Positions 8,280 to 38,325 of a DNA stretch of 64,000 nucleotides are shown piece by piece. Source of the stretch: an uncultured candidatus Brocadiaceae bacterium. Its GTDB lineage: Bacteria; Planctomycetota; UBA1135; UBA2386. Both the position numbers and the translations under genes were made by a program. The notes under the pieces are model-generated. The model was given only the letters and a program-made list of their open reading frames with translations. It was not told the DNA's origin and searched no databases. Positions within the stretch are counted from its first letter, which is position 1, and each line of letters opens with the position of its first letter. The stretch covers positions 3,450 to 67,449 of the forward strand of contig CAZIFB010000018.1 in NCBI GenBank assembly GCA_964538915.1, read 5' to 3'.

Positions 8280-8690
8280 ATGGGACGGTTCGTGAACCTG
8301 CGCGTCGATCCACACAGCCTCGTGCCCCCGAGCCAGCAGCTCGTCGCCGCGGTGCTCGATGCGATCGCGCGGGGTGAGGTCGGGCCCGGCGACAGACTGC
8401 CGTCCGTGCGCGGGGCCGCGGCGGAGGCGCTCGTCAACCCGAACACGGTCACCAAGGCGTGGCGGGATCTCGAGCACCTCGGCGCGACCGAAGGACGCAA
8501 CGGCTCGGGTGTGTTCGTCACGGCGGCCGGGCCCGACGTCGCGCGCGGCATCCGGCTCGCGGAGACGCTCGCGGCGTTCCGCGCGGCGGCGGCGGCGGCG
8601 GTCCGGGCGGGGCACGAGATCGCCGTACTGGAAGCGGCGGTGGAGCAGGCGAAGGAGGGCGCTGCGCACGCAGCGGGGAGCAAGGCATGA
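8280..8690 (+). CDS. GntR-family transcriptional regulator, YtrA-like subfamily
   Basis: Last 136 codons of ORF 7350..8690. Winged-helix motif GDRLPSVRGAAAEALVNPNTVTKAWRDLEHLG...GSGVFV with a short C-terminal helical tail. Followed by an ABC ATPase, as in ytrA-type operons. Confidence 0.8.
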   Translation: MGRFVNLRVDPHSLVPPSQQLVAAVLDAIARGEVGPGDRLPSVRGAAAEALVNPNTVTKAWRDLEHLGATEGRNGSGVFVTAAGPDVARGIRLAETLAAFRAAAAAAVRAGHEIAVLEAAVEQAKEGAAHAAGSKA

Positions 8691-19310: not shown

Positions 19311-20840
19311 GTGCCCACGATCCTGCTCGGCGACCCGTCGCTTCCCCTGTCCACACTCGTCGCGCTGAGCCGTCCGGGCGGACGGATCGCGTTGTCGAAG
19401 CAGGCGCGCCGGAACGTGCAGCGGAGCCGCGCGGTGGTGGAGCGCGCCGTGAAGTCGGGCGCCACGATGTACGGCATCAACACCGGCTTCGGGAAACTCG
19501 CCGGCGTGCGCATTCCCGACGATCAGCTCGAGCAGCTGCAGGAGAACCTGCTGCTGTCGCACGCGACGGGCGTCGGTGAACCGCTCGCCGTCGACGCGAG
19601 CCGCCTCGCGTTCGCGCTGCGCATCCACAACCTGGCGCTGGGCTACTCGGGCGTGCGCCCCGAGCTGCTGGAGCAGGCGATGGCGCTGTGGAACGGCGGC
19701 TTCGTGCCGGTGATCCCGAGCCAGGGTTCGGTCGGTGCGTCGGGCGACCTGGCGCCGCTGTCACACATGGCGCTGCCGCTGATCGGCCGCGGCGAGGTTC
19801 ACGACGGCGGGCGTGTGATCTCGGGCGCCGCCGCACTGAAGAGGCTGGGCCGCGAGCCGCTCGTGCTTCGTGAGAAGGAAGGGCTCGCCCTGATCAACGG
19901 CACGCAGATCATGACCGCGATCGGGTGCCTGTGCGTGCACCGTGCGATCGTGCTCGCGAAGACGGCCGATGTCGCGTGCGCGATGACGGTGGAGGCGCTG
20001 CGCGGCAGCGAGAAGCCGTTCCAGGAGCGCCTGCACACCGTGCGTCCGCACGAGGGCCAGCTCGCGACCGCGGCGAACCTGCGTGCGCTGCTCGCGGACA
20101 GCAAAGTGATGCCGAGCCACGCCAACTGCGGCAAGGTGCAGGACGCCTACTCGCTGCGCTGCGTGCCACAGGTGCACGGCGCGGCGAAGGACGGCATCCG
20201 GTACGCGCTGGACGTGCTCGTCACCGAAGCGAACGCGGTGACCGACAACCCGCTGGTGTTCCCGAGCGGCGACGTCGTCAGCGGCGGCAACTTCCATGGC
20301 CAGCCGGTCAGCCAGGCGCTGGACTTCCTGAAGATCGCGGTGAGCACGCTCGCGAACATCAGCGAGCGGCGGATCGAGCAGCTCGTGAATCCCGACATCT
20401 CCGGCCTCCCGCCGTTCCTCGCCAAGAACCCGGGCCTCGAGAGCGGTTTCATGATCCCGCAGGTCGTCGCCGCGGCGCTCGCGAGCGAGAACAAGACGCT
20501 GGCGCATCCGGCGAGCGTCGACACCGTGCCGACATCGGCGAACCGCGAGGATCACGTGTCGATGGGCGTCACCGCGGCGCGGCACGCGGACCGCGTCGTC
20601 GCGAACACCGCGAAGGTGCTGGGCATCGAGGTGTTGTGCGCAGCGCAGGGGCTCGACCTCGGCGAGAAGCTGCGGCCCGGCGTCGGGGTCGACGCGGCGT
20701 ACCGCGTGTTGCGCAAGAAGGTGCCGATGCTCTCCCAGGATCGCTTCCTCGCGCCGGATCTCGCGGCCGCGGAGCAGCTGGTCGAGGACGGCGATCTCGT
20801 CGCTGCCGCCGAGAAGAAGGCGGGGGTGCTGGCGGTGTGA
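19311..20840 (+). CDS. hutH: Histidine ammonia-lyase
   Basis: 509-aa ORF. MIO-forming motif GSVGASGDLAPLSH, YGINTGFG and NPLVF..G.V.SGGNFHG. The start is a GTG. Confidence 0.9.
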   Translation: MPTILLGDPSLPLSTLVALSRPGGRIALSKQARRNVQRSRAVVERAVKSGATMYGINTGFGKLAGVRIPDDQLEQLQENLLLSHATGVGEPLAVDASRLAFALRIHNLALGYSGVRPELLEQAMALWNGGFVPVIPSQGSVGASGDLAPLSHMALPLIGRGEVHDGGRVISGAAALKRLGREPLVLREKEGLALINGTQIMTAIGCLCVHRAIVLAKTADVACAMTVEALRGSEKPFQERLHTVRPHEGQLATAANLRALLADSKVMPSHANCGKVQDAYSLRCVPQVHGAAKDGIRYALDVLVTEANAVTDNPLVFPSGDVVSGGNFHGQPVSQALDFLKIAVSTLANISERRIEQLVNPDISGLPPFLAKNPGLESGFMIPQVVAAALASENKTLAHPASVDTVPTSANREDHVSMGVTAARHADRVVANTAKVLGIEVLCAAQGLDLGEKLRPGVGVDAAYRVLRKKVPMLSQDRFLAPDLAAAEQLVEDGDLVAAAEKKAGVLAV

Positions 20841-20889
20841 GTTCGCCCGTCCGACGCGACGCCGCCGTCGTTGCGCGTCGTGTCGTCGC

Positions 20890-21339
20890 TCAGAAGAAGC
20901 CGGCGGTGAGCCGGAGGGCGTTCGTCGAAGTGACCGAGGTCCACGCACCCTGCGCGTCCAGCTCGATCGGCACCATCTGGTGGTGGAAGGTGACGCCGAC
21001 GATTGGCGGGAGGGAGGGCAGGAAGAAACTCGAGTCGGCGATGCCGTTCGAAGTGACGACCAGCCCGAGTATGTCGGGCGCCACCAGGACGTCGCAGCCG
21101 GTGCCCGCGAAGGGGAAAGCGAGCGTCAGGGGAGCCACGCCTTGCGGGACCGCTGTCACGCTCGTCAGCGTGAGCACCAGAGCCGAGGTGGGCAGGCCGG
21201 TGCCGCGTGCGCGGAAGGTCGCATCGACCCAAGGCAGGGTGAGGGCGGTGAGCTGGCTGCCCCCGCCGGTGCCCGGACATCCGACGCCTGTCGGAGCCGC
21301 GGTCGCCGGGCACGTGGTCGAGATTCGTCCGAGGTTCAT
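20890..21339 (-). CDS. Stand-alone copy of the two-Cys C-terminal domain (possible gene remnant or in-frame extension of 21529..22647)
   Basis: The 149-aa ORF is roughly two-thirds identical by eye to residues encoded at 463..885. It has no signal peptide. The same frame is open upstream to the TAG at 21529..21531. Confidence 0.4.
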   Translation of the reverse strand: MNLGRISTTCPATAAPTGVGCPGTGGGSQLTALTLPWVDATFRARGTGLPTSALVLTLTSVTAVPQGVAPLTLAFPFAGTGCDVLVAPDILGLVVTSNGIADSSFFLPSLPPIVGVTFHHQMVPIELDAQGAWTSVTSTNALRLTAGFF

Positions 21340-21528
21340 CTCGCCTAACGATCCGCCGACCAGGATGTCGCCCTCGGGCAGCGTCGCGAACGTGCGTTCA
21401 GAACGATCGAGGTCTCGGTACTGTGCCGGCGGGCCCCTCGGTGGGTGCAGAGAGCGTTCGACCGAGTTCCCTGCGCTCCGAGTCAGAGGTCTTCGCGCCG
21501 CGCGCCGACGTCGCGAGTGAGCAGTGCG

Positions 21529-22647
21529 CTACTCCACGAACGCCGCGTCGATCGCCTTCTTCTTCGCCTTGCCGGCCTTCGTCGCGAGCAGTGACTTCGC
21601 GAAGTCGGCCATCCGGTAGTAGCGCACCCGGTTCACCAGCTCGTGCTTCTTCGCGGCGTCGAGTGCGTTGATCGCCTCGCCGATCGCCGCGGGGCCGACC
21701 GCGTCGTGCAGCGCGACGAGGCGTGCCAGCACCGCGTCGACGTCCTTGCCGCCCGGCCTCGTCGTCGCCGCTTCGAGGCGCTTCCGTTCGAAGTCGAGAG
21801 TGCGCCAGCGGGAGTCGCGCAGGCCCTCGAGCGCGGGGGCATCCTTCTTCGTTTTCGCGAGGTTCTCGACGATCAGGACGCCCGTGTAGTGCGCCCACGC
21901 GTGACGGTCCTCTTCGTTCTGGCGATCGCCCCACATCGCGATCACATGGCCGAGTTCGTGGCAGAGCCCGTAGAAGAGGAACTGGCCGTCCTTCGTCGGC
22001 GACGCGAACGCCTCGCCGTCGATCACCGGGAAGTCGATCTCCGAGTGGAACGGGAACTGCGGGGCGAAGTGCGGCGGGCGCGTGGTCTTCGCTTCGAGGT
22101 GGATGCGCAGGCGGAGCTTCTTGCCGGGCACCTTGCTGAAGTTCCGCAGACCGAAGACGTCGGCGTAGGCGTCGAGCACGAGGTCGAAGACGTCGGCAAT
22201 GCGTGTGAGGCACTCCGGTTCGACGCCGCCCGTTGCGATCGCGAGGAAGCGGAGTCGCGACAGCGCGATGCCGATCTCGTTCGCGCGCGTCCCGTCGAGC
22301 TGCACCAGCCGGTCGCGCAGCGCCGCGAAGTCGTCGAGGCGGTCGAGGTCGAGCGCCGCTGCCGCCGCGGTCGCGAGGGCATCGCGGACCTCGGGCGCGT
22401 CGCCGCAGCGAAGGAGTTCCGCGACGAGCTTGGCGGCGGAGGCAGGCAGCTGTTTGCCGAGTTCGCCTTCGTCCTTCGCGACGGGTTTGTCCGCGTGCGC
22501 CTTGTTGACCGCGGCGACGGCGAGTGCGTAGTCGCGGGAGAGCTTCTCGGCGTCCTGGCCGCGCGCGATGTCCGGCATGCAGGCGACAGCGGCTGTCACG
22601 AGTGCCGCGCTGACAACGGCTCTTCGGGATCGCATGGCGGGGACCAT
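21529..22647 (-). CDS. Secreted HExxH (HELGH) putative zinc metallopeptidase-like protein
   Basis: 372-aa ORF. Signal peptide ([23 protein letters not shown]), HExxH motif in [16 protein letters not shown], ordinary composition. Confidence 0.7.
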
Positions 22648-22957
22648 AGCGGAGGAGCCTCGGGGGCGGAGGCCTCCGGGACCGAACGGGCTTCACCTCC
22701 CGCGGCTACATGACGCGTCTTCTTGCGAACGCCACGACCGTGCGTGGAATCTTGGACCTCGTGGCACCCCTGCCGCAGTCACGAGAGGCAACGTGCTGGC
22801 ATTCACACATCGCACGGAGCGCCGTCGTGCGAGCCGCGATGCCGACTCGCCCCGCCGTTCCACGCCGACGCGAGCGGCGTGTCCGCATTCCCGTGCAGTC
22901 ACGGCGTCGCTAGCGCGATCGCTTGCGACGGCGCGCCCGGCCCGCCACGCTACCGCG

Positions 22958-24598
22958 ATGACCGCCTACCGCGCGCCGCGTGGCAAGACCCTCACCTGTG
23001 CCAATTGGCAGATCGAAGCCGCGTTCCGCATGGTCCAGAACAACCTGGACCAGGACGTCGCGGAGGACCCCGAGAAGCTCATCGTGTACGGCGGGCTCGG
23101 CAAGGCAGCGCGCAATCCGCAGGCGCTGCAGGGCATCCTCGCGACGCTGCGTCGGCTGAAGCCCGACGAGACGATGCTCGTGCAATCGGGCAAGTGCGTC
23201 GGCGTGTTCCGGACGCACGCCGATGCGCCGCGTGTGCTGCTCGCGAACAGCAACCTCGTCGGCGACTGGGCGAACTGGGACGAGTTCCGCCGCCTCGACA
23301 AGCTCGGACTCATCATGTACGGCCAGATGACCGCGGGCTCGTGGATCTACATCGGGAGCCAGGGCATCGTGCAGGGCACCTACGAGACGTTCGTCGCGGC
23401 CGGCAAGCGGCACTTCGGCGGTGACCTGAAGGGGCGCCTCGTCGTGACGGCGGGCCTCGGCGGCATGGGTGGCGCGCAGCCGCTCGCAGTGACGATGGCG
23501 GGCGGTGTGTGCCTGGCGGCCGACGTCGAGGGCTGGCGCATCGACAAGCGGCTGCAGACGAAGTACCTCGACGAGCGAATCGACGATCCCAAGAAGGCGC
23601 TCGCCGCCGCGTTGGCGAAGAAGAAGGCCGGCGTGCCCTGGTCGATCGGTGTGTGCTGCAACGCCACGGAACTGCTCGCGGTCGTACGCGACAGCGGCAC
23701 CGTGCCCGACATGCTGACCGACCAGACGTCGGCCCACGACATGCTCGTCGGCTACGTACCGGACGGCATGACGGTGGAGGCGGCGAAGACGCTGCGCGAA
23801 CGCGATCCGAAGAAGTACCTCGTCGAGTCGCGCCGCACGGTCGCGAAGCACGTCGCCCTGATGCTCGACCTGCAGGAGCGCGGAGCGATCACGTTCGACT
23901 ACGGCAACAACATCCGAACGGAGGCGCGCGATGCCGGCGTCGCCGAGGCGTTCCGCATCAAGGGCTTCATCCCCGAGTACATCCGGCCGCTGTTCTGCGA
24001 GGGCCGCGGACCGTTCCGATGGGTGGCGCTGTCCGGCAACCCCGCCGACATCGCGCGCACCGACAAGCTCGCGCTCGAGATGTTCGGCGACAATCCGTCG
24101 CTGCGGACGTGGATCGAGAAGGCGCAGAAGCAGATCGCGTTCCAGGGGCTGCCCGCGCGCATCCTCTGGCTCGGCTACGGCGAGCGCGCGCGCTTCGGCC
24201 TCGCGGTGAACGAACTGGTCGCGAAGGGCGAACTCGAGGCACCGATAGTGTTCGGCCGCGACCACCTCGACTGCGGTTCGGTCGCGTCGCCCTATCGCGA
24301 GACGGAGGCGATGAAGGACGGCAGCGACGCGATCGCGGACTGGCCCTTGCTCAACGCGATGCTGAACGTGGCGTCCGGCGCCACGTGGGTGTCGATCCAT
24401 CACGGGGGCGGTGTCGGCATGGGCAAGTCGATCCATGCGGGGCAGGTCACCGTCGCCGACGGCACGCCCGCTGCCGCCGCGCGCATCCAGCGCGTCTTCA
24501 CGTGCGATCCGGGCATCGGCGTGGCGCGCCACGCCGACTCGGGCTACGACGAGGCGCGGGTGTTCGCGAAGAAGGCCGGCGTCGATCTCGGCGGTTGA
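22958..24598 (+). CDS. hutU: Urocanate hydratase
   Basis: From residue 131 of ORF 22568..24598 ([22 protein letters not shown]). [15 protein letters not shown]-binding motif, and [26 protein letters not shown] is highly characteristic. Confidence 0.9.
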
Positions 24599-24854: not shown

Positions 24855-25619
24855 ATGTTCCGCCGCAACAAGCCAGCCGACGACGCAGCGATGCCCGAGG
24901 ACATGGTCGTGATCGTCGACCAGTCCGTGAACCCGTACCTCGTGCTGTTCCACGAGCCGACGGGCTACCGGGCGGAGCAGGTCCGGGCGCTGCGCAACCG
25001 CCTCGTCGCGATGAATCCGGACGGTGAGCCGAAGACGCTCGTCGTTACGTCGGCCGTCCGCGAGGAGGGCAAGACGGTCGCGGCGCTCAACCTCGCGATG
25101 GCGCTTGCGGAGCTCGAACGCAATCAGGTGGTGCTGGTCGACGGCGATCTGCGCCGCCCGTCGTGCGAACGCTATCTCAACCTCAACCCCGCGCCGGGCT
25201 TCACGGACGTGCTGCTCGGGCGCGCACCGCTCGATCGGGTTCTGCGCCCCGCGGGGTACCGGCAGCTGATGCTGCTCGGCTCCGGCGCCCGGGTGACCAA
25301 CCCGGCGGAAGTGCTCAGCGGCTCGCGGCTCGACGAACTGCTGCACCGGCTGAAGGAGCGCTTCCAGTACGTCATCGTCGATTCGCCACCGGTCCTGCCG
25401 TCGACCGATGCCGGTGTGTTGTCGGCGCGTGCCGACGGCACCCTCGTCGTCGTGCGGCTCGAGAAGTCGTTGAAGAAGCAGACCCGCGACGCCATCCGCG
25501 CCGTGCAGGACATGGGGGGCAACGTGCTGGGCTGCTTCGTCACCGAGCTGCGCGGCCACGATCCCGAGAGCGACCGACGCCTCGCCTACGAACCGACGAA
25601 CGAGGGCGAAGGAACCTGA
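24855..25619 (+). CDS. ParA/MinD-superfamily ATPase of the CpsD/CapB/BY-kinase type (cytoplasmic domain only)
   Basis: From residue 149 of ORF 24411..25619 (MFRRNK; 24891 MPEDM is also possible). Walker A-like TSAVREEGKT, Walker A' VLVDGDLRRP, Walker B VIVDSPP. No TM/PCP domain and no C-terminal Tyr cluster. Confidence 0.75.
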   Translation: MFRRNKPADDAAMPEDMVVIVDQSVNPYLVLFHEPTGYRAEQVRALRNRLVAMNPDGEPKTLVVTSAVREEGKTVAALNLAMALAELERNQVVLVDGDLRRPSCERYLNLNPAPGFTDVLLGRAPLDRVLRPAGYRQLMLLGSGARVTNPAEVLSGSRLDELLHRLKERFQYVIVDSPPVLPSTDAGVLSARADGTLVVVRLEKSLKKQTRDAIRAVQDMGGNVLGCFVTELRGHDPESDRRLAYEPTNEGEGT

Positions 25620-26404
25620 TGTCCGGCTTCAAGGAGACGCTGAAGGATGCCGTGCGGCAGATGTCGTTCCGCACGTCGCTCGACACCCTGAAGAAGAAGG
25701 GTGTCCAGCAGGTCAACGTGCTGGGCATCGACCGCATCATCGCGCTCATCGAGGCGGCGGTGCACCGGAGCCTGAAGTCGCACCTCGTCGGCGTCGAGCG
25801 CGAGGCGGTCGCGGACGCGACGAAAGCCGAGTTCCTGCGCCTCCTGCGTACGAACGAGGACCTGCAGCGCCAGAAGACCGAGGTCGAGCGGCAGAAGGAG
25901 CGCGTCGAGGACGAAGTCGACTCGTTGCGCCGCGAACTGTTCGTGCAGCAGCACGCGCTCGAGCTCAAGCTGGAGCAGGGGTCGCTGTCGGCCGCGAACC
26001 GCTACGAGGGCGAGAACGCCGAGATCGCGAAGAAGGTCGGCGAAGTGATGCGCAGCCTCGCCGGCGGAGGGAACCTGCCGCTCTCCGTCGCGGAGGAGAA
26101 GGTGATGGAGCTGGTGATGAACGTGATCGACGGGGAGCGCAAGGCCGCCGACGAGGCGCGGCGCGCACTGCACGATCGCGAGGTCGACAACCTCCAGCGC
26201 CGCATCAAGAAGCTGAGCTCGACCCTCGAGCAGACCGAAGGACGTTTGCAGGCGGTCGCGGCGATGAAGAACATCGACTCCGGCATCTCGTCGCTCTACC
26301 GCGAGGTGCAGGGGCTGAACCTGGCGGACGCCCAGTCCGGCAAGAAGAAAGAACTCATGGCCGAGATCTTCAAGGCGAACCTGAAGCTCCAGAAGAAGAG
26401 CTGA
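25619..26404 (+). CDS. Coiled-coil protein, unknown function
   Basis: From residue 153 of ORF 25163..26404 (MSGFKETLKD). 261 aa, E/K/R/Q/L-rich heptad-like stretches, no TM segment. The start overlaps the stop of the ATPase gene (TGATG). Confidence 0.7.
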   Translation: MSGFKETLKDAVRQMSFRTSLDTLKKKGVQQVNVLGIDRIIALIEAAVHRSLKSHLVGVEREAVADATKAEFLRLLRTNEDLQRQKTEVERQKERVEDEVDSLRRELFVQQHALELKLEQGSLSAANRYEGENAEIAKKVGEVMRSLAGGGNLPLSVAEEKVMELVMNVIDGERKAADEARRALHDREVDNLQRRIKKLSSTLEQTEGRLQAVAAMKNIDSGISSLYREVQGLNLADAQSGKKKELMAEIFKANLKLQKKS

Positions 26405-26447: not shown

Positions 26448-27518
26448 ATGAGCGACACGAAGACGACGGAAGAGACCAAGAAGGACCACGGCGTCCTGTA
26501 CATCGGCATGGACCTCGGCACGTCGCGCACCTCGGTGTCGGCGAGCAACGGTGTCCGCGAGACCGTCTACTCGATGGTCGGGTACCCGAAGGACGTGGTC
26601 AGCATGAAGCTGCTGAAGAAGGACGTGCTGTTCGGCAAGGAGGCCCTCGAGAAGCGTCTGTCGCTGAAGCTGTACAAGCCGCTCGAGAAGGGCGTTCTCA
26701 AGTACACCGGCGATGCGACGATGGATGCCGAAGCGAAGGCCAACCTGAAGGCCGCCCAGGACCTGATCGGCGAGGCGATCCGGATGGCGAAGCCGCGCAA
26801 GGACGAACTGATCTACTGCGTGATCGGCGCGCCCGCGGAAGCTTCGGTCAAGAACCGCGAGGCGATCATCGAGGCGGCCCGCGCCCACGTCGATTCCGTG
26901 ATGTTGTGCAGCGAGCCGTTCTCGGTGGCGTACGGGCTCGACTGGCTCGAAGACGTGCTCGTCATCGACATCGGCGCCGGCACGACCGACCTCTGCCGCA
27001 TGCACGGCACCATGCCGGAGGAAGCGGACCAGGTGATGTACGAGATCGCGGGTGACGCGGTCGACGCCGAACTCGCGCGACAGATCGAGAAGACGTGCCC
27101 CGGCGCCCAGTTCACCATCCACATGGTGAAGGACATCAAAGAGCGCTACGGCTTCGTCGGCGACGCGCCCGAGCGCTGCATCGTCGAGCTGCCGGTGAAC
27201 GGCAAGCCGACGCCGTTCGACCTGACCGATCAGATCCGGAGCGCTTGCTCGGTCCTCATCGAGCCGATCCTCGAGGGAATCCACAAGCTGATCGCGTCGT
27301 TCGACCCGCAGTTCCAGGCGAAGCTGAAGAGCCGGGTGCTGCTCGCGGGTGGCGGTTCGATGGTGAAGGGGCTCGACTCCGCGGTGGAGAAGGCGATGAA
27401 GGAGCGCCTCGGCGGCGGCAAGGTCATCCGCATCGAGGAACCGATCTACGGCGGCGCCAACGGCGCCCTGAAGATCGCGCACGACATGCCGGCCGACTTC
27501 TGGGAGCAGTTGAAGTAG
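26448..27518 (+). CDS. Actin-like ATPase, MamK-like family
   Basis: 356-aa ORF. Actin-fold motifs GMDLGTSRTS, VIDIGAGTTD and LLAGGGS. From memory it tracks Magnetospirillum MamK along its whole length (VGYPKDV, CSEPFSVAYGLD, DIGAGTTDLC, C-terminal P.(D/Q)(F/Y)W.QL) better than MreB, ParM or FtsA. Confidence 0.8.
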   Translation: MSDTKTTEETKKDHGVLYIGMDLGTSRTSVSASNGVRETVYSMVGYPKDVVSMKLLKKDVLFGKEALEKRLSLKLYKPLEKGVLKYTGDATMDAEAKANLKAAQDLIGEAIRMAKPRKDELIYCVIGAPAEASVKNREAIIEAARAHVDSVMLCSEPFSVAYGLDWLEDVLVIDIGAGTTDLCRMHGTMPEEADQVMYEIAGDAVDAELARQIEKTCPGAQFTIHMVKDIKERYGFVGDAPERCIVELPVNGKPTPFDLTDQIRSACSVLIEPILEGIHKLIASFDPQFQAKLKSRVLLAGGGSMVKGLDSAVEKAMKERLGGGKVIRIEEPIYGGANGALKIAHDMPADFWEQLK

Positions 27519-28994: not shown

Positions 28995-31553
28995 TCAGTC
29001 TTCGCGCACGTCGGTGATGCGTGCGTTCACCATCACCATCAGGCTGCGGTTCTCGTCCGCAGTGCCCTCCTGCTTGAAGAGGAAGGAGATGAGGGGCAGC
29101 CGAGCCAGGATCGGCACTTCGGCGCGGCGTTCCTTCGTCAGCACCTGACGCAGGCCGCCCAGCAGCACGGTGCCGCCGTCCGGCACCTTCGCCGTGGTCG
29201 AGAAGTTCGTCACGGTGATGTTCGGCAGCTGCAGCGTGACTGGCAGGGTCGAACCGGCGAGCGACGTCGTGAACGTCGGGATCGGGCGCTGGAGCTCGGA
29301 CACCGTCGGGTTGAGGTTCAGGACGATGTAGCGGCGGTCGTGTTGGATGACCGGCTGCACGTCTAGAACGATGCCGTCCTGGATCACGTCGATCTTCGGG
29401 TCGGCGATGAAGGCCGCCTGCGCGACCTCGACGTCGAAGTCTCGGACGTACGCGGTCTGGTTGATCACTGCGACGTGGCCGCGCTCGCGGTTCAGCACCG
29501 ACAGGATCTGGCTGTTCATGACCTCCGCGTCCTGCTTCTTCTCCACCGCGCGCAGGATCATGTTCAGCTGCGTGTCGTCGAGGAGCGTGATGCCTGCGGT
29601 CAGGCCGCCGGACGGGGTGAGCACGCGGCCGAGGTCGCTCGTGAAGAAGTTCTCGGAGCGGGCGCGGATGTCGCCGTCGCCGCCGTCGTTGAAGAACGCG
29701 CCGGCGAGAGGGTTGGCCGCAGGGTCGCTCGTGCCGCCGTTGTCGAGGCCGCGCGACGCGTTGTCGTCGAGGCCGTTGCTGAGGTCTTCGAGGGTCGCGA
29801 CGTCGCCCTTGTTGCCGGAGCCGCCGAGGCCGCGGAAGTCGACACCGAGTTCCATCAGGAAGTTGCGCGAGATGGTGAGGAACTTCGAGTCGATCGTCAC
29901 GATCGGCGTCTGGAAGTTCCGCATGTCGGCGAGGCGACGGCGGACCAGCGCCTGCATGTCCGGGCTGGCGCGAACCGACAGGAACCCCTGGTCCTCGGCC
30001 TGGATGCCGACGCCCTCGGTCTCCCAGTACTTCGGGTCGGTGGCGTTCTTGATGTTCTCGACGAGGTCGGCGAGCTCGACGCCTGCCTTCTTCTCGTCAC
30101 CTTCGCTGCCCGTGCGCGGCGTGTCCTCGCCGTCTTCGCCGGGAATGCCCGCGATGCGCGGCGGCAGGAAGTCGGTGCGCTTGAAGATCAGGTCTTTGAC
30201 CGAGTAGATCTCGTGCTGGATCGTGCCGGCGGCCTGCGACTTGTTGCCGATCACGACGACGCCGTTCTTCACGGTCCAGGCGAGGTTCTGGCTCCGCTCG
30301 ACCATGTGCTTCAGGAAGTTCTCGAGCGTGATCGAACCGGCGAGCTCGATGACGACCTTGAGGCTCTCCCCGCTGATGATCGTGCGCGCCTCCGGCGTCG
30401 TGATGATCTGCACGCCGGTGATCAGGTTGAGGTTCTTGACGACTTCGAGGAAGTCGCCCGTCTCTTCGGTGTAGGAGAGCTTGCCGACCGGTTCGGTCCG
30501 CACCTTGTCCCACACGGCCTGGTCCTGCGGGTCCATCACGCTGCTGCCGTTCGCGGCGAGCGAACGACCCTGGGCACGCTGCCACACCGCCATGTCCATC
30601 TCGAGGACGTTGGTCTGCGGCACCTTCAGTTCGTCGGCTGCCTCGACCATCGCGCGCAGCGCCTTGCTGCGCTCCGCGATCCACGTCTCGTTCTGCTTCT
30701 CGCGCGCGGCCTTGACCGAGGCGTTGTGCATGTCGACCGCGACCTGGTTGCCCGGATCGACCTGCATCGCACGCGCCGACAGCTCCTGCGCGCGTGAGAA
30801 CTGGCGGCGTTCGAACGCGATCTGGGACTCCTGCAGCAGCCCGGCGACCTGGGCGCGGCGGCGAGCCTCCTTCTCGGCGTAGTCGGCGCGGATGCGCTCG
30901 GCGAGTTCCGCATCCTTCTGCGCCTGGCTCTGCCGCTGCTGATCGTCCAGCATCTTCTCGGCGTCTGCCTTCGCCGTCGCCACGCGCCCGGGCAGGTCGG
31001 CCCAGTCGGTGTTGTCGCGCACGCGGATCAGCAGGTCGGCCTGCCGCAGCTCCTCGATCGCACCGGCGTAGTTCTTGTCCGCGACCTGCTTCTCGGCCTT
31101 CTGGAGGCGCGCCTGCACGTCGGCGCGAGCGCGCTCTTCGCCGATGTGTTGCAGCTGACGCTGTTCGTCGGTGAACGTCACGACGCGGCCGGCGGGTTCG
31201 CCGAGTTCCGCCTGCACCGAAGCGAGCAGGCTCCGCACCTGTTCGTTCGTCGGCGAGAGGTCCTTCGCGCGGATCAGTTCGCTGCGCGCTGCTTCGAGCT
31301 GGCCCTTGCTGCGCAGGCCTTCCGCGTTCTCGATGTACTTCGCCACGAGTGCGTCGCGCCGCTGGTCGCGAACACGGTCCTGCGGGGACTGCGAGGTCGG
31401 GTCCTGCGTGCGTTCCGCCGGGTTGGTCCGCGGCGTCGCGACCGGCGGCGTTGCCGCGGTGTCGTTCGACGCTTCGTGCGGGGTCGAGCAGGCGGCGCCG
31501 AGAACTGCGGCGGTCAGGGATGCGGCGAGAAGGGGCCTTTGTTCGAGAGCCAT
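28995..31553 (-). CDS. Secretin-family outer-membrane channel lipoprotein (secretin B) with long helical N-terminal region
   Basis: 852-aa ORF. Lipobox LTAAVLGAAC|S, ~330 aa of charged helical/coiled-coil sequence, an N-domain-like region, and a canonical C-terminal secretin domain (...KVPDGGTVLLGGL...EVPILARLPLISFLFK...). Paralog of 38326..41016. Confidence 0.85.
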   Translation of the reverse strand: MALEQRPLLAASLTAAVLGAACSTPHEASNDTAATPPVATPRTNPAERTQDPTSQSPQDRVRDQRRDALVAKYIENAEGLRSKGQLEAARSELIRAKDLSPTNEQVRSLLASVQAELGEPAGRVVTFTDEQRQLQHIGEERARADVQARLQKAEKQVADKNYAGAIEELRQADLLIRVRDNTDWADLPGRVATAKADAEKMLDDQQRQSQAQKDAELAERIRADYAEKEARRRAQVAGLLQESQIAFERRQFSRAQELSARAMQVDPGNQVAVDMHNASVKAAREKQNETWIAERSKALRAMVEAADELKVPQTNVLEMDMAVWQRAQGRSLAANGSSVMDPQDQAVWDKVRTEPVGKLSYTEETGDFLEVVKNLNLITGVQIITTPEARTIISGESLKVVIELAGSITLENFLKHMVERSQNLAWTVKNGVVVIGNKSQAAGTIQHEIYSVKDLIFKRTDFLPPRIAGIPGEDGEDTPRTGSEGDEKKAGVELADLVENIKNATDPKYWETEGVGIQAEDQGFLSVRASPDMQALVRRRLADMRNFQTPIVTIDSKFLTISRNFLMELGVDFRGLGGSGNKGDVATLEDLSNGLDDNASRGLDNGGTSDPAANPLAGAFFNDGGDGDIRARSENFFTSDLGRVLTPSGGLTAGITLLDDTQLNMILRAVEKKQDAEVMNSQILSVLNRERGHVAVINQTAYVRDFDVEVAQAAFIADPKIDVIQDGIVLDVQPVIQHDRRYIVLNLNPTVSELQRPIPTFTTSLAGSTLPVTLQLPNITVTNFSTTAKVPDGGTVLLGGLRQVLTKERRAEVPILARLPLISFLFKQEGTADENRSLMVMVNARITDVRED

Positions 31554-31844
31554 CGGGTCACGCTCGGTGCGTTACGAGAGTTCTTTGGGAGCAACGGGAG
31601 AGCGATGCTCGCCTCGTGACTCGACAAGCGATTGGCGGACGACTCGACGGTGGCAGACCGTCGCCGATTCGGGGGACGCTCGGAATCGGAACCAATCGAG
31701 AGGGACTTGCCGAAGCACGAGAGCAGTCACCGTCGGCGACAGGGCGTGGCGCCGGCGGCAAGGGCCGGAACGTAGCCACGTTGGCGAGGATGCGCCAGCG
31801 GTTTCTTGCCACCGGGGGCCCCGGAATGCGGGCCCGGAAGCGAG

Positions 31845-31881
31845 CCGGCCCGCCCGGGTCGCGAGGACCGGGGCGGGCCGG
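31845..31881 (-). terminator. Strong GC hairpin ~30 nt downstream of the second ExbD gene
   Basis: ccggcccgcccgg-(10-nt loop)-ccggggcgggccgg gives 13 bp with one bulged G. It lies in the 357-nt gap between 31911 (ExbD stop) and 31553 (secretin B start). Confidence 0.4.
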
Positions 31882-31910
31882 ACACGGGCCGCGTCGCTGC
31901 GGCGAATCGG

Positions 31911-32456
31911 CTACTTGGCGCCGAGGCCGCCGCCGAAGTTGATCTCCTGGAAGCCCGCGTTCTTGCAGGCGTCCGCGGTCTTCGCGACGTCCTCGTAGTA
32001 GGTGCCGGGGTAGGCCTCGATCACGCACCCCATGAGCTTGCGGCCGCCGGTCTCCTTGTCGGGGACCATGCTCGCCGGGTTTTGCGCGATGCGCTTCAGC
32101 TCGGCTTCGACGTCGGTCAGGTTGTAGAGCGGCTTCGGGCCGACTTCCCACTTGACCTTGTGGCCGATCAGCGAGAAGCGGTAGGCCCGACCCGTGTTCG
32201 GGTTGACCTGGTTCGCCCCACCGTGCTTGTACTCGGGCGTGCCGGCCTGCTCGACGTGGATCTTCACCGACAGTTGCTCCTGCGGTTCCACGACGTCGGT
32301 CTGGCTGCCCTTGTCCTTCGGCAGGTAGGCGGGGAGCTTCGACTCCAGCACTTTGAAGTCGATGCAGATGAAGAAGATGATCATCAAGAACACGACGTCG
32401 ATCATCGGCGTCATGTCCGGCTTCACTTCTTCCTGGGCGTCGTCGAGAGCGCTCAT
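31911..32456 (-). CDS. ExbD/TolR-family protein (paralog 2, 181 aa)
   Basis: N-terminal TM motif DMTPMIDVVFLMIIFF with the conserved TM Asp. Longer periplasmic part than classical ExbD. The start overlaps the stop of the upstream ExbD gene by 4 nt. Confidence 0.85.
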   Translation of the reverse strand: MSALDDAQEEVKPDMTPMIDVVFLMIIFFICIDFKVLESKLPAYLPKDKGSQTDVVEPQEQLSVKIHVEQAGTPEYKHGGANQVNPNTGRAYRFSLIGHKVKWEVGPKPLYNLTDVEAELKRIAQNPASMVPDKETGGRKLMGCVIEAYPGTYYEDVAKTADACKNAGFQEINFGGGLGAK

Positions 32457-32995
32457 TTCTTGGCTCCCTTGTCAGGGTTCTTCTCGCCCGTCTCCTTGTC
32501 CTGTTCGGAGAGCGCCAGCTCGACCTTCCAGAACGCGATCTCGGGCTGACTGCACTGCTTCATGATCTCGCCGATGTAGTGCCACTCGGTCCACTTGTCG
32601 GCTCGGATCAGGATCGGCTCGTCGACGAGCGGGACCATCCTCGAGCCGACCTTCTCGTCCTTCAGGTGGAGCGTCTTGTTGAAGAGCCCGAGCTTCCGGA
32701 TGTCGAGAAGGAGCTGTTTGATCGGCGCGTAGTTCTTGCCGTGCTTCTTGGGGTCGTAGAAGACTTCCTTGTTGTAGACCACCGTTCCGTCCTGCAGCAC
32801 GTTGATGATCGGCCGGTTCTCGGCCGGCTTGTCGTCGGCCTCCTGGAACACGGCGCGCGGCAGGATCAGGTCCTCGAGGTTCTTCTGGCTCAGGTCGATG
32901 ACCAGCACGAAGAAGATCATCAGCAGGAACACGCAGTCGATCATGGGCGTCATGTCCATCTCGACGTTCTGCTGCACGAGCTTGTTCACGTCCAT
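32453..32995 (-). CDS. ExbD/TolR-family protein (paralog 1, 180 aa)
   Basis: DMTPMIDCVFLLMIFFVLV TM motif and a periplasmic domain (PIINVLQDGTVVYN...ILIRADK). Confidence 0.85.
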   Translation of the reverse strand: MDVNKLVQQNVEMDMTPMIDCVFLLMIFFVLVIDLSQKNLEDLILPRAVFQEADDKPAENRPIINVLQDGTVVYNKEVFYDPKKHGKNYAPIKQLLLDIRKLGLFNKTLHLKDEKVGSRMVPLVDEPILIRADKWTEWHYIGEIMKQCSQPEIAFWKVELALSEQDKETGEKNPDKGAKK

Positions 32996-33063
32996 GGGGT
33001 TCGTTTCTCCGGCTGTGGGCCGCCGCGAACGGCGGCTCCGAGGTCACGGGGAAGGGGCACCGC

Positions 33064-33783
33064 TCACTTGCCGCGGAAGCGCTCGAACAGGTCTTCGGAG
33101 ATCGCGTTGATCTCGGTCGACGCCTTGATGACGCGGTTGCGCAGCGTGTAGAAGGCGACGCCCACGGGGATCGCGACCGTGAGGCCGAAGATCGTCGTGA
33201 TGAGCGCCATCTTGATGCCGCCCGCGAGCTGCGCCGGGCTGACCGAACCGCCGGCTGCCGCGATGGCGCTGAACGTGACGAACATGCCCGTCACCGTGCC
33301 GAACAGACCCATCATCGGCGCGAGCGCCGAGATCAGCGACAGCCAGCCGATCTTCTGGAACAGCTTGACGGACTCCTCGGTCTGCATCTCGCGCAGCGAC
33401 GTCTGCATCGTCTCGAACGAGTGGCCGAGCTTGGACAGACCGGCGCCGACGACGTTCGTCAGGTAGGTCTTCTCCTGTTCGCACAGCTCGACGGCCTCCT
33501 GGAAGTTCTCGCCGTCGAACAACGCCTCGAGCTCGTCGAGAACGTCCGGCGGCGCGAGCTTCTCGCGCTTGATCGACATGAAGTTCTCGATGATCAGCGC
33601 GAGTGCCACGACCGACATCGCGATGATGAGGTAGCCGACGATGCCGGCGTTCTTGTACGCGAAGACCTCGGAGATGGTGCTCGTGCTCTCAGCGGCCGGG
33701 TCCTGCGCGAGCAGGGTCGAAGCCAGCAGCAAAGGCGCGGCGACGGCGAGAATCCGGGAAACAGACGCGTTCTTGAGGTTCAT
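33064..33783 (-). CDS. MotA/TolQ/ExbB-family proton channel protein
   Basis: Last 239 codons of ORF 33064..34296 (MNLKNASVSRILAVAAPLLLASTLLAQ signal-like N-terminus). Three TM segments with family motifs (LISALAPMMGLFGTVTGM, IKMALITTIFGLTVAIP). Confidence 0.85.
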   Translation of the reverse strand: MNLKNASVSRILAVAAPLLLASTLLAQDPAAESTSTISEVFAYKNAGIVGYLIIAMSVVALALIIENFMSIKREKLAPPDVLDELEALFDGENFQEAVELCEQEKTYLTNVVGAGLSKLGHSFETMQTSLREMQTEESVKLFQKIGWLSLISALAPMMGLFGTVTGMFVTFSAIAAAGGSVSPAQLAGGIKMALITTIFGLTVAIPVGVAFYTLRNRVIKASTEINAISEDLFERFRGK

Positions 33784-33928
33784 GGAGCGGGGACTCCTGG
33801 GACTGAGTCTCGTACGGAAGGGGAGAGGGGCGGATCGGAAAGGGGGCGGGAAGTCTGCTCGACCGGCCACGGGTGCGAAAGGGCCGATCGGCAGAAACTG
33901 ACGGGGGTTGCGGTGGCGTGCGCTCGGC

Positions 33929-35056
33929 TCACTTCGCCATCTCCAGGCGCGCTTCGGTGGCCCAGGGCGACGAGGGGTAGCTCGTGACGACGATCTGGAA
34001 GTAGGCCGTTGCGCGCTCCTTCCACGTTTCGCCTTCGCCTTCGGCGCCCAGCGCCGTGAGGCAGCGGCCGAGGAAGTAGTTCGCCTTGGCACTGGCCTCG
34101 CCGCTCGCGATGTCCATGACCGAGGCCTTGGCGAAACAGAGCTGCGCACGACGGATGTCGTTCGGCGAACCGTTCGGGCCGGCGGCCATGAAGATGGCCT
34201 GGCCCTCTCCCGCGTGGCCGGCGGCGACGAGGGATGGCTCGTTGCCGGTCGTGAGGCCGCGGAAGAAGCTCTCGGCCTTCGCGAACTCCTTCTCACCGAG
34301 GAAGGTCTCGCCCTCGCCGACGCGGGCCTGCGTCTTCAGGGCCTTCAACTCACCGTCGTCCGGCGACGGCGTGGTGAGGGCAGAGTCGACGGCCGAACTC
34401 GCGGCTTGGAACGCGCTGCGCGCTTCCGAAGTCTTGCCGTCCGCGAGCAGTGTGAGCGCGAGTTCGGACTTCGCGCGGGCGCTCCAGATCGCGCCGAACC
34501 CTTCGCGCAGTGCGCGGTCGTCGAGCTCGCGCAGCGTCGTCGCCGCGGCGCCGCCGGTGCCGGCGAGTCGCTCGGCACGTCCCGCGAGGAACAGCGCTTC
34601 CGGCGTGCGCCAGTGGTTCGCATTCGCGGCGATCCACGATTTCGCCCGCGCCGCCGCCGTAGCGGCCGCGCCCTTGTCGGCGCCGATCGCGGCGACGGCC
34701 GACTTGATCAGGAAGAACTCGGCGTCGGCCTTCACGAGCGGCCGCTCGGTCTGGTTGATCGCGTCGCCGAACATTTGGGTTGCGGCGCGGAAGTCGCCTC
34801 GCTCCATCGAAGCACGGCCGCTGATGAAGGCGTCGGGCAGGTTGCTCCACTCGATTGCCGCGACGAGGTGAGCCGGCACCTCGAACGGGTCGGCGCCGCG
34901 CTTGCCGCGAACGCCGGTGAGCAGGAACTCGGTGATCTCGAGGCCGCGCACGCGCGACCCGTCCTTCTTCAGGATCGCGTCGTTGATCTTCGGGGCCTGG
35001 GCGATGGCGGAAGCAGCGACCGTCGCCGCTGCGAGCAGGAAGGGGAGGATGCGCAT
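33929..35056 (-). CDS. Secreted/periplasmic all-helical TPR-like protein (375 aa)
   Basis: From residue 31 of ORF 33929..35146 (MRILPFLLAAATVAASAIAQA signal peptide). Ala-rich helical repeats (e.g. GDFRAATQMFGDAI, KEFAKAESFFRGL, ANYFLGRCLTALG). Confidence 0.75.
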   Translation of the reverse strand: MRILPFLLAAATVAASAIAQAPKINDAILKKDGSRVRGLEITEFLLTGVRGKRGADPFEVPAHLVAAIEWSNLPDAFISGRASMERGDFRAATQMFGDAINQTERPLVKADAEFFLIKSAVAAIGADKGAAATAAARAKSWIAANANHWRTPEALFLAGRAERLAGTGGAAATTLRELDDRALREGFGAIWSARAKSELALTLLADGKTSEARSAFQAASSAVDSALTTPSPDDGELKALKTQARVGEGETFLGEKEFAKAESFFRGLTTGNEPSLVAAGHAGEGQAIFMAAGPNGSPNDIRRAQLCFAKASVMDIASGEASAKANYFLGRCLTALGAEGEGETWKERATAYFQIVVTSYPSSPWATEARLEMAK

Positions 35057-35179
35057 CGTGGTCGGTTCGTCTCGGGCGCTCAGAGCGTGAGAAGCAATCG
35101 GTTTCGAACGCTCTGCGTGGCCGCGAAGACGGCCACAGGGGAGCAACTGAGAGCCTGAATCATGAACTGTCTCGGGCTC

Positions 35180-38050: not shown

Positions 38051-38325
38051 GGGCAGACTCCGGGATTCGGGACAGCGTGGGATCGGTCGCACGGGCGCGT
38101 CCGGGGAGACGGGGCGTCCGTACACACAGCGCGGCCGGTGGGGCTCCGGGCGCGCTGCAGAGGGGGAAACGGCGAGCATAGCGAAGCGTTCAGTCGATCC
38201 AACAGCTCGCACGCCGCGCGGGTGGGGGACGGAAACGACCGCGGCCGCCGTTCCCCGAGGGAAGGGCGGCCGCGCGGCGCCTGCGGACCCCGCTGTCCGC
38301 GGGTCGGGATGGGGCGACTCTCGCC

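What the first reader, a model, noticed from the sequence alone, without database searches (positions are those of the whole stretch)
26448..27518. MamK-like actin homolog with no magnetosome genes nearby
Seen: a 356-aa actin-fold ATPase. Its motifs and their order match my memory of MamK (G.DLGTS.T, VGYPKDV, VIG.PA.AS, SEPF.V.YGLD, IDIGAGTTD, F.FVG, AGGGS, C-terminal (F/Y)W.QL) rather than MreB, ParM or FtsA. Established: MamK organises magnetosome chains and is encoded within mam operons. Here I see none of the other mam genes (no MamA/B/E/I/L/M/O/P/Q-like genes) in 64 kb. Inference: a cytoskeletal filament of the MamK clade has been recruited for another positioning or scaffolding task. Candidates are the neighbouring ATPase and coiled-coil genes, and possibly the envelope machine encoded next door.
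Basis: partly seen in the sequence, partly recalled or inferred. Interest (0 to 1): 0.7.

Follow-up and report, generated by a model that had tools for sequence, protein, structure and literature searches.

The report
Saltatorellin-type MamK-like actin with partners
This is a real actin-like filament gene of the MamK family in a non-magnetic planctomycete; the gene type was already named "saltatorellin" in 2019, but here it proves to travel with a coiled-coil partner gene and usually a kinase-like ATPase gene, which gives a concrete way to find out what the filament does.

Summary
ORF 26448-27518 (+) encodes a 356-aa actin-fold ATPase that passes NCBI's MamK-family model (405.6 bits, cut-off 400). 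Its closest solved structure is MamK. None of the roughly 50 genes in the 64 kb resembles a magnetosome gene.

It is not a magnetosome MamK. It is 37% identical to AMB-1 MamK. It sits in its own clade (bootstrap 90-94) with relatives in 444 GTDB species genomes; the 80 best fetched are all labelled as uncultured Planctomycetota. One of these is a CL500-15 (OM190) genome. OM190 is the lineage in which Wiegand et al. (2019 preprint) named a MamK-like actin "saltatorellin" and showed that it forms filaments. The basic finding is therefore already known, although I could link this protein to saltatorellin only indirectly.

The gene context appears to be unreported. A helical, no-Pfam partner lies directly upstream in 90 of 90 loci. 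A BY-kinase-like P-loop ATPase lies within 2.5 kb in 74 of 83 loci, and it stays linked even where it is inverted. In single loci the partner core is fused to a Wzc-like protein or to a GGDEF domain. The secretin/ExbBD cluster next door is not linked outside the window's subclade.

Best reading: a three-part cytoskeletal module of filament, adaptor and ATPase regulator, with its cellular role unknown.

The parts
24855..25619 (+). Stand-alone BY-kinase-like P-loop ATPase (254 aa). It has Walker A (SAVREEGKT), Walker A' (VLVDGDLRRP) and Walker B (YVIVDSPP), a single conserved C-terminal Tyr instead of a Tyr cluster, and no transmembrane or activator domain.
   Evidence: Pfam AAA_31, and NCBIfam TIGR03018/TIGR03029/TIGR01007 all below their cut-offs. 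The closest solved structures are BceF, CapB, VpsO, Etk and Wzc (E 1e-26 to 1e-19); MinD reaches only 1e-7. Motifs are conserved in 70 orthologues, and 62 of 70 have exactly one Tyr in the last 30 residues. The start codon is ATG at 24855. The stop codon overlaps the start of the next gene as TGATG. NCBI names a near-identical MAG protein 'CpsD/CapB family tyrosine-protein kinase'. A homologue lies within 2.5 kb upstream of the actin in 74 of 83 loci.
25619..26404 (+). Helical (coiled-coil-type) partner protein of 261 aa, with no Pfam or NCBIfam family. Its C-terminal ~90 residues are conserved across all subclades (ER..A..A...RRI.KL...LE.TE..L...GIsSIYR.VQGL...KKELM..IF.ANL.LQK). Its N-terminal domain is conserved only in the window's subclade.
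   Evidence: No curated family matches it. There are 291 homologues, all hypothetical or auto-named. AF2 predicts an all-helical protein with long helices 59-148 and 155-217, mean pLDDT 66, and no significant fold match. Conservation profile. It lies directly upstream of the actin, on the same strand and within 400 bp, in 90 of 90 loci with at least 700 bp of upstream sequence. HMM matches in distant loci range from E 1e-44 to 2e-23. The true start is the ATG at 25619, as shown by the orthologue N-termini (MSGFKE/MAGFKE).
26448..27518 (+). MamK-family (saltatorellin-type) actin-like ATPase, 356 aa. This is the gene in the finding.
   Evidence: The equivalents of MamK catalytic residues E143 and D161 are E156 and D174, and both are invariant in the 20-sequence family alignment. 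The gap from the partner's stop codon is 43 nt and contains an AGGA 10 nt before the ATG.

Best explanation
The gene encodes the saltatorellin-type member of the MamK family of bacterial actins. This is the second actin, besides MreB, of the OM190/'Saltatorellota' branch of the Planctomycetota, organisms that are not known to make magnetosomes. It most likely binds and hydrolyses ATP and polymerises into cytoplasmic filaments, as MamK does.

It is expressed from a three-gene operon. A BY-kinase-like P-loop ATPase is translationally coupled to a helical partner protein, and the actin gene follows. I infer that the partner is the filament's adaptor and acts through its universally conserved C-terminal ~90 residues. 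Its role would be like that of MamJ or the Mad and Mca coiled-coil proteins for MamK, or of ParR for ParM. I infer that the ATPase regulates or localises the partner-filament complex, either by tyrosine phosphorylation or as an ATP-driven oligomerisation switch.

What is shown here: the gene's existence, its family, the conserved catalytic residues, the absence of magnetosome genes, the separate clade, and the conserved linkage of the three genes. What was shown elsewhere, for the Poly30 protein only: filament formation in E. coli and in M. gryphiswaldense. What is inferred: that this protein is the same family as saltatorellin, that the partner binds the filament, what the ATPase does, and the cellular role (shape change, division, or positioning of an envelope or polysaccharide machine).
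For: Family: the NCBIfam MamK model is passed. PDB sequence and fold matches rank MamK above BeeR above MreB. The catalytic Glu and Asp are conserved.

Not magnetosomal: no mam-type domains occur in the 64 kb or in the flanks of related loci. Relatives occur in 444 GTDB species genomes. The protein forms its own clade with bootstrap 90-94, away from AMB-1 MamK and CAX83788.

Link to saltatorellin: the preprint reports that Saltatorellota carry MreB plus one MamK-like actin that forms filaments heterologously. It equates the phylum with SILVA OM190 and GTDB UBA1135, UBA8108 and GCA-002687715. Locus L047, a CL500-15 genome, carries the whole module at 82% actin identity, and CL500-15 belongs to OM190 (PMC5607371). 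The termini encoded by the cloning primers (MTD... and ...YWEQLK*) fit the family. G+C is about 70% in both.

Module: the ATPase stop and partner start overlap (TGATG). The partner is adjacent in 90 of 90 loci and the ATPase in 74 of 83, including 4 loci where it is divergently oriented amid unrelated neighbours. In L088 an ATPase-like domain and the partner core lie in one reading frame. The actin is as conserved as urocanase (median 80% against 81%), which points to strong constraint.
Against: I could not obtain the Saltatorellus ferox Poly30 sequence, so identity with saltatorellin is indirect. No cultured Saltatorellota genome appeared among the 80 best genome hits.

Nine of 83 loci lack an adjacent ATPase, so the ATPase is not obligatory in cis. 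The ATPase has no Tyr cluster and no activator domain, so kinase activity is uncertain.

The NJ tree uses simple distances, and nodes deeper than the clade itself have about 54% support. Both AF2 models are of only moderate confidence (pLDDT 66). The rest of the source genome could not be searched for a magnetosome island.
Confidence: 0.6

Rival explanations
1. The module organises polysaccharide (EPS or capsule) synthesis and export. On this view the ATPase is a detached Wzc/CapB-type tyrosine kinase, and the actin filament positions or tracks the export machinery, much as MreB guides wall synthesis. This could feed aggregate formation or slime-based movement.
For: The ATPase's closest characterised relatives are all polysaccharide BY-kinases: BceF, CapB, VpsO, Etk and Wzc. 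In L088 the partner core sits at the end of a Wzc-like protein that has a periplasmic coiled-coil part, a TM helix with a GVPVLGLVPELP motif and a degenerate kinase domain, next to Poly_export (Wza-type) and Polysacc_synt (Wzx-type) genes. OM190 and CL500-15 cells are particle-associated, and the Saltatorellota isolates form large aggregates.
Against: Only one locus shows the Wzc fusion, and it contains frame changes, so it may be an assembly error or a pseudogene. The window operon has no TM activator, Wza, Wzx or glycosyltransferase genes nearby. The Tyr cluster that defines BY-kinase regulation is missing. Nine loci have no adjacent ATPase at all.
Confidence: 0.2
2. The filament positions or scaffolds the envelope-spanning secretin/ExbB-ExbD/TPR machine encoded immediately downstream.
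For: A HAD hydrolase, a secretin, two ExbD, an ExbB, a TPR protein and a second secretin follow on the opposite strand. This order is kept in most loci of the window's subclade.
Against: Within that subclade the unrelated hutH-hutU genes are equally syntenic, so the shared order reflects relatedness rather than function. In every locus of the other subclades (L073-L087 type 2, and L088-L093) no secretin or ExbBD gene lies near the partner-actin pair. The genes are convergent with the actin operon, not co-transcribed with it.
Confidence: 0.05
3. It is a true MamK, a peripheral copy belonging to a magnetosome island located elsewhere in the genome, or a relic of a lost island.
For: It passes the NCBIfam MamK model, though only just. 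Magnetosome gene clusters have been reported in some Planctomycetota metagenome bins (PMC7602337 appears in the list). An FeoB gene lies at 58201-60114, but FeoB is widespread in bacteria.
Against: It is only 37% identical to AMB-1 MamK and forms a separate, well-supported clade. It is present in 444 species genomes. No mam-type gene flanks it in any of 93 loci. It has its own dedicated and differently composed partner set. The cultured Saltatorellota were described without any mention of magnetosomes.
Confidence: 0.02

Closest known systems
Saltatorellin, the MamK-like actin of Saltatorellus ferox Poly30 and other 'Saltatorellota' (Wiegand et al. 2019, bioRxiv 10.1101/817700)
   Same: Both are MamK-like second actins in non-magnetotactic, ~70% G+C, OM190-type planctomycetes. 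The termini encoded by the cloning primers (MTD... and ...YWEQLK*) fit the family. A fluorescent fusion of the Poly30 protein forms filaments in E. coli and in a M. gryphiswaldense mamK mutant.
   Different: I could not obtain the Poly30 sequence, so identity is inferred. The cultured strains were not among the 80 best genome hits, so they are probably under ~66% identical to the window protein. The preprint does not mention the partner or the ATPase genes.
MamK of magnetotactic bacteria (e.g. Magnetospirillum magneticum AMB-1; PDB 5jyg, 5ljv, 5ljw)
   Same: It shares the same actin subfamily by HMM, by sequence (E 9e-72, full length) and by predicted fold (TM 0.70-0.81). The catalytic Glu and Asp, the phosphate-binding loops and the C-terminal (F/Y)W.QL motif are conserved. 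Both work in the context of coiled-coil accessory proteins: Mad23/25/26 and McaA/B for MamK (PMC12748827).
   Different: Identity is 37%, and the protein sits in a separate clade. There is no magnetosome gene cluster.
BeeR, the MamK-related actin of Verrucomicrobiota that forms a three-stranded tube (PMC11929497; PDB 8r2n)
   Same: It is another MamK-family offshoot in a non-magnetotactic PVC-superphylum lineage, of unknown cellular role.
   Different: The BeeR model scores 203 bits against a cut-off of 530 and identity is 30%. The BeeR clade is basal in the tree. The long disordered N-terminal domain that marks BeeR is absent here, where only about 15 residues precede the fold.
ParMRC and PomXYZ-type systems (a filament or scaffold plus an adaptor plus a P-loop ATPase)
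   Same: The resemblance is in logic only: a small operon coupling a polymer, a coiled-coil or adaptor protein, and a nucleotide-driven regulator. This comparison rests on general knowledge.
   Different: No sequence relationship was found. ParM scores 16.7 bits. The ATPase is of the BY-kinase type rather than the ParA/MinD type. No centromere-like repeats were looked for.

Membership tests
MamK family in the broad sense (NCBIfam NF040964 subfamily) | Whole-protein score at or above the curated cut-off | tested here: met
   405.6 bits against a cut-off of 400, E 1.5e-121, covering residues 17-355. The margin is narrow.
MamK family in the broad sense | Actin fold closest to MamK, with conserved nucleotide-binding and catalytic residues | tested here: met
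   PDB sequence match to 5jyg at E 9e-72. The AF2 model's best Foldseek hits are 5ljw and 5ljv (E 7e-27, TM 0.70-0.81). MamK E143 and D161 correspond to E156 and D174, both invariant in alignment A1.
MamK in the strict sense (magnetosome-chain actin) | Encoded within a magnetosome gene cluster alongside mamA/B/E/I/L/M/O/P/Q-type genes | tested here: not met
   No CDF, LemA, trypsin, PDZ or magnetochrome domains occur in the 64 kb or in the flanks of related loci. The rest of the genome was not searchable.
MamK in the strict sense | Groups phylogenetically with MamK of magnetotactic bacteria | tested here: not met
   The protein falls in its own clade with bootstrap 90-94. AMB-1 MamK, P0153, P0217 and CAX83788 branch elsewhere. 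Deeper nodes are poorly resolved.
MamK in the strict sense | Aligns or positions magnetosomes | not testable with these tools
   This needs cell biology. No magnetosomes are reported for cultured relatives in the preprint.
Saltatorellin (Wiegand et al. 2019) | MamK-like second actin of the OM190/UBA1135/UBA8108 ('Saltatorellota') lineage | tested here: inconclusive
   The link is indirect. L047, a CL500-15 MAG, carries the module at 82% actin identity. CL500-15 belongs to OM190, and the Saltatorellota isolates cluster in OM190. G+C is about 70%. No marker-gene taxonomy of the window was possible.
Saltatorellin | Sequence orthology to the S. ferox Poly30 protein | not testable with these tools
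   The sequence could not be obtained. Only the termini encoded by the primers (MTDITTD... and ...YWEQLK*) could be compared, and they fit the family pattern.
Saltatorellin | Forms filaments in vivo | not testable with these tools
   This was shown for the Poly30 protein in heterologous hosts only.
BeeR | NCBIfam NF053558 cut-off, and the hallmark disordered N-terminal domain | tested here: not met
   203 bits against a cut-off of 530. Only about 15 residues precede the first strand. The protein sits in a separate clade.
MreB / ParM / FtsA / PilM | Family model cut-offs | tested here: not met
   MreB 60 against 293, ParM 16.7 against 417, FtsA 25.7 against 176, PilM 15.6 against 133.
BY-kinase (Wzc/CapB type), for the neighbouring ATPase | Walker A, A' and B motifs of the BY-kinase catalytic domain | tested here: met
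   SAVREEGKT, VLVDGDLRRP and YVIVDSPP are conserved in 70 orthologues. The closest solved structures are BceF, CapB, VpsO, Etk and Wzc.
BY-kinase (Wzc/CapB type) | C-terminal tyrosine cluster, and a transmembrane activator domain or partner | tested here: not met
   There is a single conserved Tyr; 62 of 70 orthologues have exactly one in the last 30 residues. The operon has no TM domain or CapA-like gene. All NCBIfam BY-kinase models fall below their cut-offs, with TIGR01007 at 107.9 against 108.05.

The most novel reading that the evidence does not exclude
The three genes form a self-contained and so far undescribed bacterial cytoskeletal system. In it, a highly conserved actin filament is coupled through a dedicated coiled-coil adaptor to a tyrosine-kinase-type ATPase. 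Phospho-regulation of an actin polymer would be a eukaryote-like logic. The system would be the motor or scaffold behind shape-shifting, budding or fission in the FtsZ-less OM190/Saltatorellota planctomycetes.
Probability: 0.15. Interest if true: 0.8.

Novelty: new member of a known kind. Interest (0 to 1): 0.45.

Why it matters
Saltatorellota were reported to change shape, crawl, fuse and switch between budding and fission. All of that rests on a single unreviewed preprint. Its only molecular lead is one MamK-like actin, and the organisms cannot yet be manipulated genetically.

Two results here help. First, this actin family is not confined to three isolates: relatives occur in hundreds of uncultured planctomycete species from lakes, soils, groundwater and the sea. 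Second, the actin always comes with a specific partner protein and usually with a kinase-like ATPase. Together these turn 'what does saltatorellin do?' into biochemistry that can be done now: co-pelleting, phosphorylation and reconstitution assays.

The results also show that magnetosome MamK is only one branch of a large, mostly non-magnetic actin family. That matters when mamK is used as a marker gene for magnetotactic bacteria.

Tried and rejected
1. Exact-sequence look-ups of the window actin and of the 100%-identical partner P0428 found no contig on record. The source record could not be named beyond 'NCBI, 81,261-bp contig'.

2. I tried several routes to the Poly30 saltatorellin sequence. 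A homology search from the deepest clade member, P0121, returned no named isolate. A search for the primer-encoded N-terminus among 427 fetched proteins found none. The preprint's supplements give only similarity percentages. A metagenome scan with the forward primer gave 10 chance matches in unrelated genes.

4. A fold search with the partner model found nothing significant, only generic helical bundles at E above 0.3.

5. I tested whether the long MamK-domain fusion proteins carry a partner-like N-terminus, which would be a Rosetta-stone link. There was no HMM similarity and no Pfam domain.

6. A sigma-70 promoter and intrinsic terminator scan of the operon found no sites. This is uninformative at 70% G+C.

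7. I tested the idea that the partner's Lys-flanked C-terminal helix is a MinD/FtsA-like membrane anchor. Its hydrophobic moment is unremarkable (0.25-0.36, about the 30th-50th percentile within the protein), so this is inconclusive.

8. I rejected a functional link to the secretin/ExbBD cluster and a magnetosome relic; the reasons are given under the rival explanations.
Full report
OBSERVATION. The window has about 70% G+C and the ORF has the very high third-position G+C (0.92) of real genes here. Seven of the eight quoted motifs are present in order. The eighth, 'F.FVG', is YGFVG. Curated profiles settle the family. NCBIfam's MamK subfamily model gives 405.6 bits (cut-off 400, E 1.5e-121), BeeR gives 203 (cut-off 530) and MreB 60 (cut-off 293), while FtsA, ParM and PilM are at noise level. 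Pfam sees only the generic MreB_Mbl and Actin families. Among solved structures the best sequence match is MamK (5jyg, E 9e-72, full length), then BeeR (8r2n, 1e-39) and MreB (1jce, 2e-11). An AF2 model of moderate confidence (pLDDT 66, pTM 0.62) gives the same ranking by fold: MamK at E 7e-27 with TM 0.70-0.81, BeeR at 1.6e-22 and MreB near 1e-15. The residues corresponding to MamK's E143 and D161 are E156 and D174, and both are invariant across the family alignment.

NO MAGNETOSOME GENES. I called genes across the whole window from codon-position G+C and scanned about 50 products against Pfam. There is no cation-diffusion facilitator, LemA, trypsin, PDZ or magnetochrome protein. What is present includes hutH and hutU, two TPR-secretins, ExbB with two ExbD, large TPR proteins, flagellin, FeoB, PNPase, an ECF sigma factor and ordinary metabolic genes. 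The rest of the genome could not be searched.

WHERE THE PROTEIN BELONGS. A search of 5.8 billion proteins returned 3750 hits at E below 1e-20. The best 120 are 73-95% identical and come almost entirely from Planctomycetota metagenome bins. Some are already named 'MamK family actin-like protein' by NCBI, and most are named 'rod shape-determining protein'. The window's own three proteins are in NCBI on an 81-kb contig. A scan of one genome per GTDB species found relatives in 444 genomes. The best 80 (66-98% identity) are nearly all labelled as uncultured Planctomycetota, with a few bins carrying other or generic labels. An exhaustive HMMER search of 50%-identity representatives found 1002 family members. 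The nearest clusters outside the clade, at 40-51% identity, come from Verrucomicrobiota, a Nitrosomonadaceae bin, Nitrospira, Acidobacteriota, Gemmatimonadota and even ANME-2/Methanosarcinales archaea. The window protein is 37% identical to AMB-1 MamK, 30% to BeeR and 27% to T. maritima MreB. In a neighbour-joining tree (92 sequences, 331 columns, 200 bootstraps) the window protein and all fetched planctomycetal orthologues form one clade (support 90, or 94 with P0121). This clade is separate from the branch holding AMB-1 MamK and the protein deposited as 'Magnetosome protein MamK' (CAX83788). BeeR is basal. Deeper nodes are weak (about 54%), so the tree does not show which lineage gave rise to which. 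In short, this is a MamK-family actin but not a magnetosome MamK.

ALREADY DESCRIBED. The literature search turned up Wiegand et al. 2019 (bioRxiv 10.1101/817700). The authors report that each 'Saltatorellota' isolate has two actins, MreB and a MamK-like protein they name saltatorellin. An mCherry fusion of the S. ferox Poly30 protein forms filaments in E. coli and in a M. gryphiswaldense mamK mutant, and the authors suggest that it drives shape-shifting. They equate the phylum with SILVA OM190 and with GTDB UBA1135, UBA8108 and GCA-002687715. I could not obtain the Poly30 sequence, so the link is indirect. First, locus L047 is a CL500-15 genome that carries the whole module at 82% actin identity, and CL500-15 belongs to OM190 (PMC5607371). 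Second, the cloning primers encode MTDITTD... and ...YWEQLK*; MTD- starts and -YWEQLK ends are common in this family, and the window protein ends in -FWEQLK. Third, both have G+C near 70%. It was also already known that non-magnetotactic genomes hold MamK homologues and that a Verrucomicrobiota offshoot, BeeR, forms a three-stranded tube. The core of the finding is therefore a new member of a known kind.

WHAT SEEMS UNREPORTED: THE MODULE. Upstream of the actin lie two co-directional genes. The first (24855-25619) encodes a 254-aa P-loop ATPase. Its closest characterised relatives are the bacterial tyrosine kinases BceF, CapB, VpsO, Etk and Wzc (E 1e-26 to 1e-19), with MinD far behind at 1e-7. 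Its Walker A, A' and B motifs are conserved, but it has one conserved C-terminal Tyr instead of a Tyr cluster and no membrane activator. Its stop codon overlaps the start of the second gene (TGATG). The second gene (25619-26404) encodes a 261-aa protein that matches no Pfam or NCBIfam family. It has 291 homologues, all hypothetical. AF2 predicts it to be all-helical with two long helices, and it has no significant fold match. The actin gene starts 43 nt further on.

HOW WELL THE MODULE IS CONSERVED. I compared 93 related loci. Some are duplicates of the same contig, so the counts are approximate. The partner is directly upstream on the same strand in 90 of 90 loci that have enough sequence. 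The ATPase is within 2.5 kb in 74 of 83. Three observations show that this is more than inherited gene order. First, in the deeper relatives L089-L092 (actin 57-66% identical) every other neighbour differs and the ATPase is inverted, yet ATPase, partner and actin remain together. Second, a sister subclade keeps partner and actin but has no adjacent ATPase. There the partner's N-terminus varies and in L085 it is a GGDEF domain. The C-terminal ~90 residues stay conserved everywhere. Third, in L088 the gene before the actin joins the C-terminal half of an ATPase-like domain to the partner core. Sequences in other frames upstream look like the rest of a Wzc-type co-polymerase, and the locus lies beside Wza- and Wzx-type genes. 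This is a single case with frame changes, so it is suggestive only. The preprint does not mention any of these neighbours. By contrast, the downstream HAD, secretin, ExbD, ExbD and ExbB genes are syntenic only within the window's subclade, where hutH and hutU are equally syntenic, and they are absent elsewhere. Across 27 loci with all six genes complete, median identity to the window is 80% for the actin, 81% for HutU, 72% for HAD, 63% for the ATPase, 57% for the secretin and 53% for the partner. The actin is thus as constrained as a core enzyme.

MECHANISM. What is shown: a conserved operon of kinase-like ATPase, helical partner and MamK-family actin, with intact catalytic residues in the actin. 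What is inferred: the actin polymerises with ATP, as MamK does and as reported for Poly30 saltatorellin. The partner's invariant C-terminal core is the filament-binding element, and its variable N-terminus connects to the ATPase, to c-di-GMP signalling or to a membrane protein, depending on lineage. The ATPase regulates or localises the complex by tyrosine phosphorylation or by ATP-dependent oligomerisation. I give about 0.85 to the identification as a saltatorellin-type actin, about 0.4 to the adaptor-and-regulator model, and 0.6 overall. The main rival is a role in organising polysaccharide export, at 0.2. It rests on the ATPase's ancestry and on L088. Positioning of the secretin machine (0.05) and a magnetosome relic (0.02) are unlikely.

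LIMITS. The tree is a distance tree. Both AF2 models have only moderate confidence. The test for a membrane-anchor helix was inconclusive. The taxonomy of the window rests on protein neighbours and on the literature, not on marker genes.

VERDICT. The gene is a new member of a family that has been named but whose function is unknown. The added value is the conserved partner and ATPase module. Interest is moderate (0.45): the finding is not surprising to a specialist in bacterial actins, but it offers a practical handle on an open question.

Noticed in passing
P0127-P0137, P0140, P0147, P0148 (proteins; not in the window): A clade with 100% bootstrap support of 520-1230-aa proteins from low-G+C organisms. 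They carry a MamK-family domain at the C-terminus (45-49% identical to the window actin) and a long, Lys-rich N-terminal region with no Pfam domain that shares a 'KKDRFREWTKSLGES'-type motif. These are actin fusions of unknown function.
   Followed up: partly
L088:3062-4976 (JGI 3300044699, 960-kb contig): Upstream of the actin is a Wzc-like co-polymerase/BY-kinase: a periplasmic coiled-coil part, a TM helix with GVPVLGLVPELP, and a degenerate Walker A 'SAEPRAGTS'. It is spread over several reading frames and ends in the partner's conserved core. Wza- and Wzx-type genes lie upstream, and RodA/FtsW plus a PBP transpeptidase lie downstream. It could be a real fusion, a pseudogene or the result of long-read indel errors.
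   Followed up: partly
L085:4926-5954 (also L076 and L083): In one sister subclade the actin's partner carries an N-terminal GGDEF diguanylate-cyclase domain (E 5e-18 in L085) fused to the conserved partner core. This hints at a c-di-GMP input to the filament system.
   Followed up: partly
L073 and L076 (both from MAG HK-STAS-PLAN-24): One genome carries two paralogous partner-actin pairs (actins 72% and 69% identical to the window), and neither has an adjacent ATPase. L093 has two partner paralogues in tandem before a single actin.
   Followed up: partly
P0146 cluster: A MamK-family actin cluster (42% identical to the window protein) whose named members all come from ANME-2 or Methanosarcinales archaeal bins.
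   Followed up: no
window 28995-40887 (- strand): An envelope gene cluster made up of a TPR-secretin (28995-31553), two ExbD genes (31911-32995), an ExbB/MotA gene (33064-33732), a 375-aa protein with no Pfam hit, a 956-aa TPR protein (35180-38050) and a second TPR-secretin (38326-40887). It is conserved in order across the window's subclade. Its function is unknown, and it is not linked to the actin outside that subclade.
   Followed up: partly
window 58201-60114 (+) and 7307-8437 (-): A FeoB ferrous-iron transporter and a flagellin gene. FeoB is widespread and is not evidence for magnetosomes. The flagellin fits the report that Saltatorellota genomes encode flagella.
   Followed up: no
P0170 (CAX83788.1, 768 aa): The protein deposited as 'Magnetosome protein MamK' from an uncultured bacterium has an N-terminus that reads like FtsZ (MPRLLVMGVGGAGCNAVDNMV...) ahead of the MamK domain. 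That reading is from memory and was not tested.
   Followed up: no
L001:1316-6505 compared with window 20840-22958: Between hutH and hutU the 95%-identical relative carries a DUF433/DUF5615 pair and an 1118-aa CarboxypepD_reg protein that the window lacks at that position. The window instead has a 356-aa gene with no Pfam hit on the minus strand (21529-22599). This is a local indel hotspot in an otherwise syntenic region.
   Followed up: no
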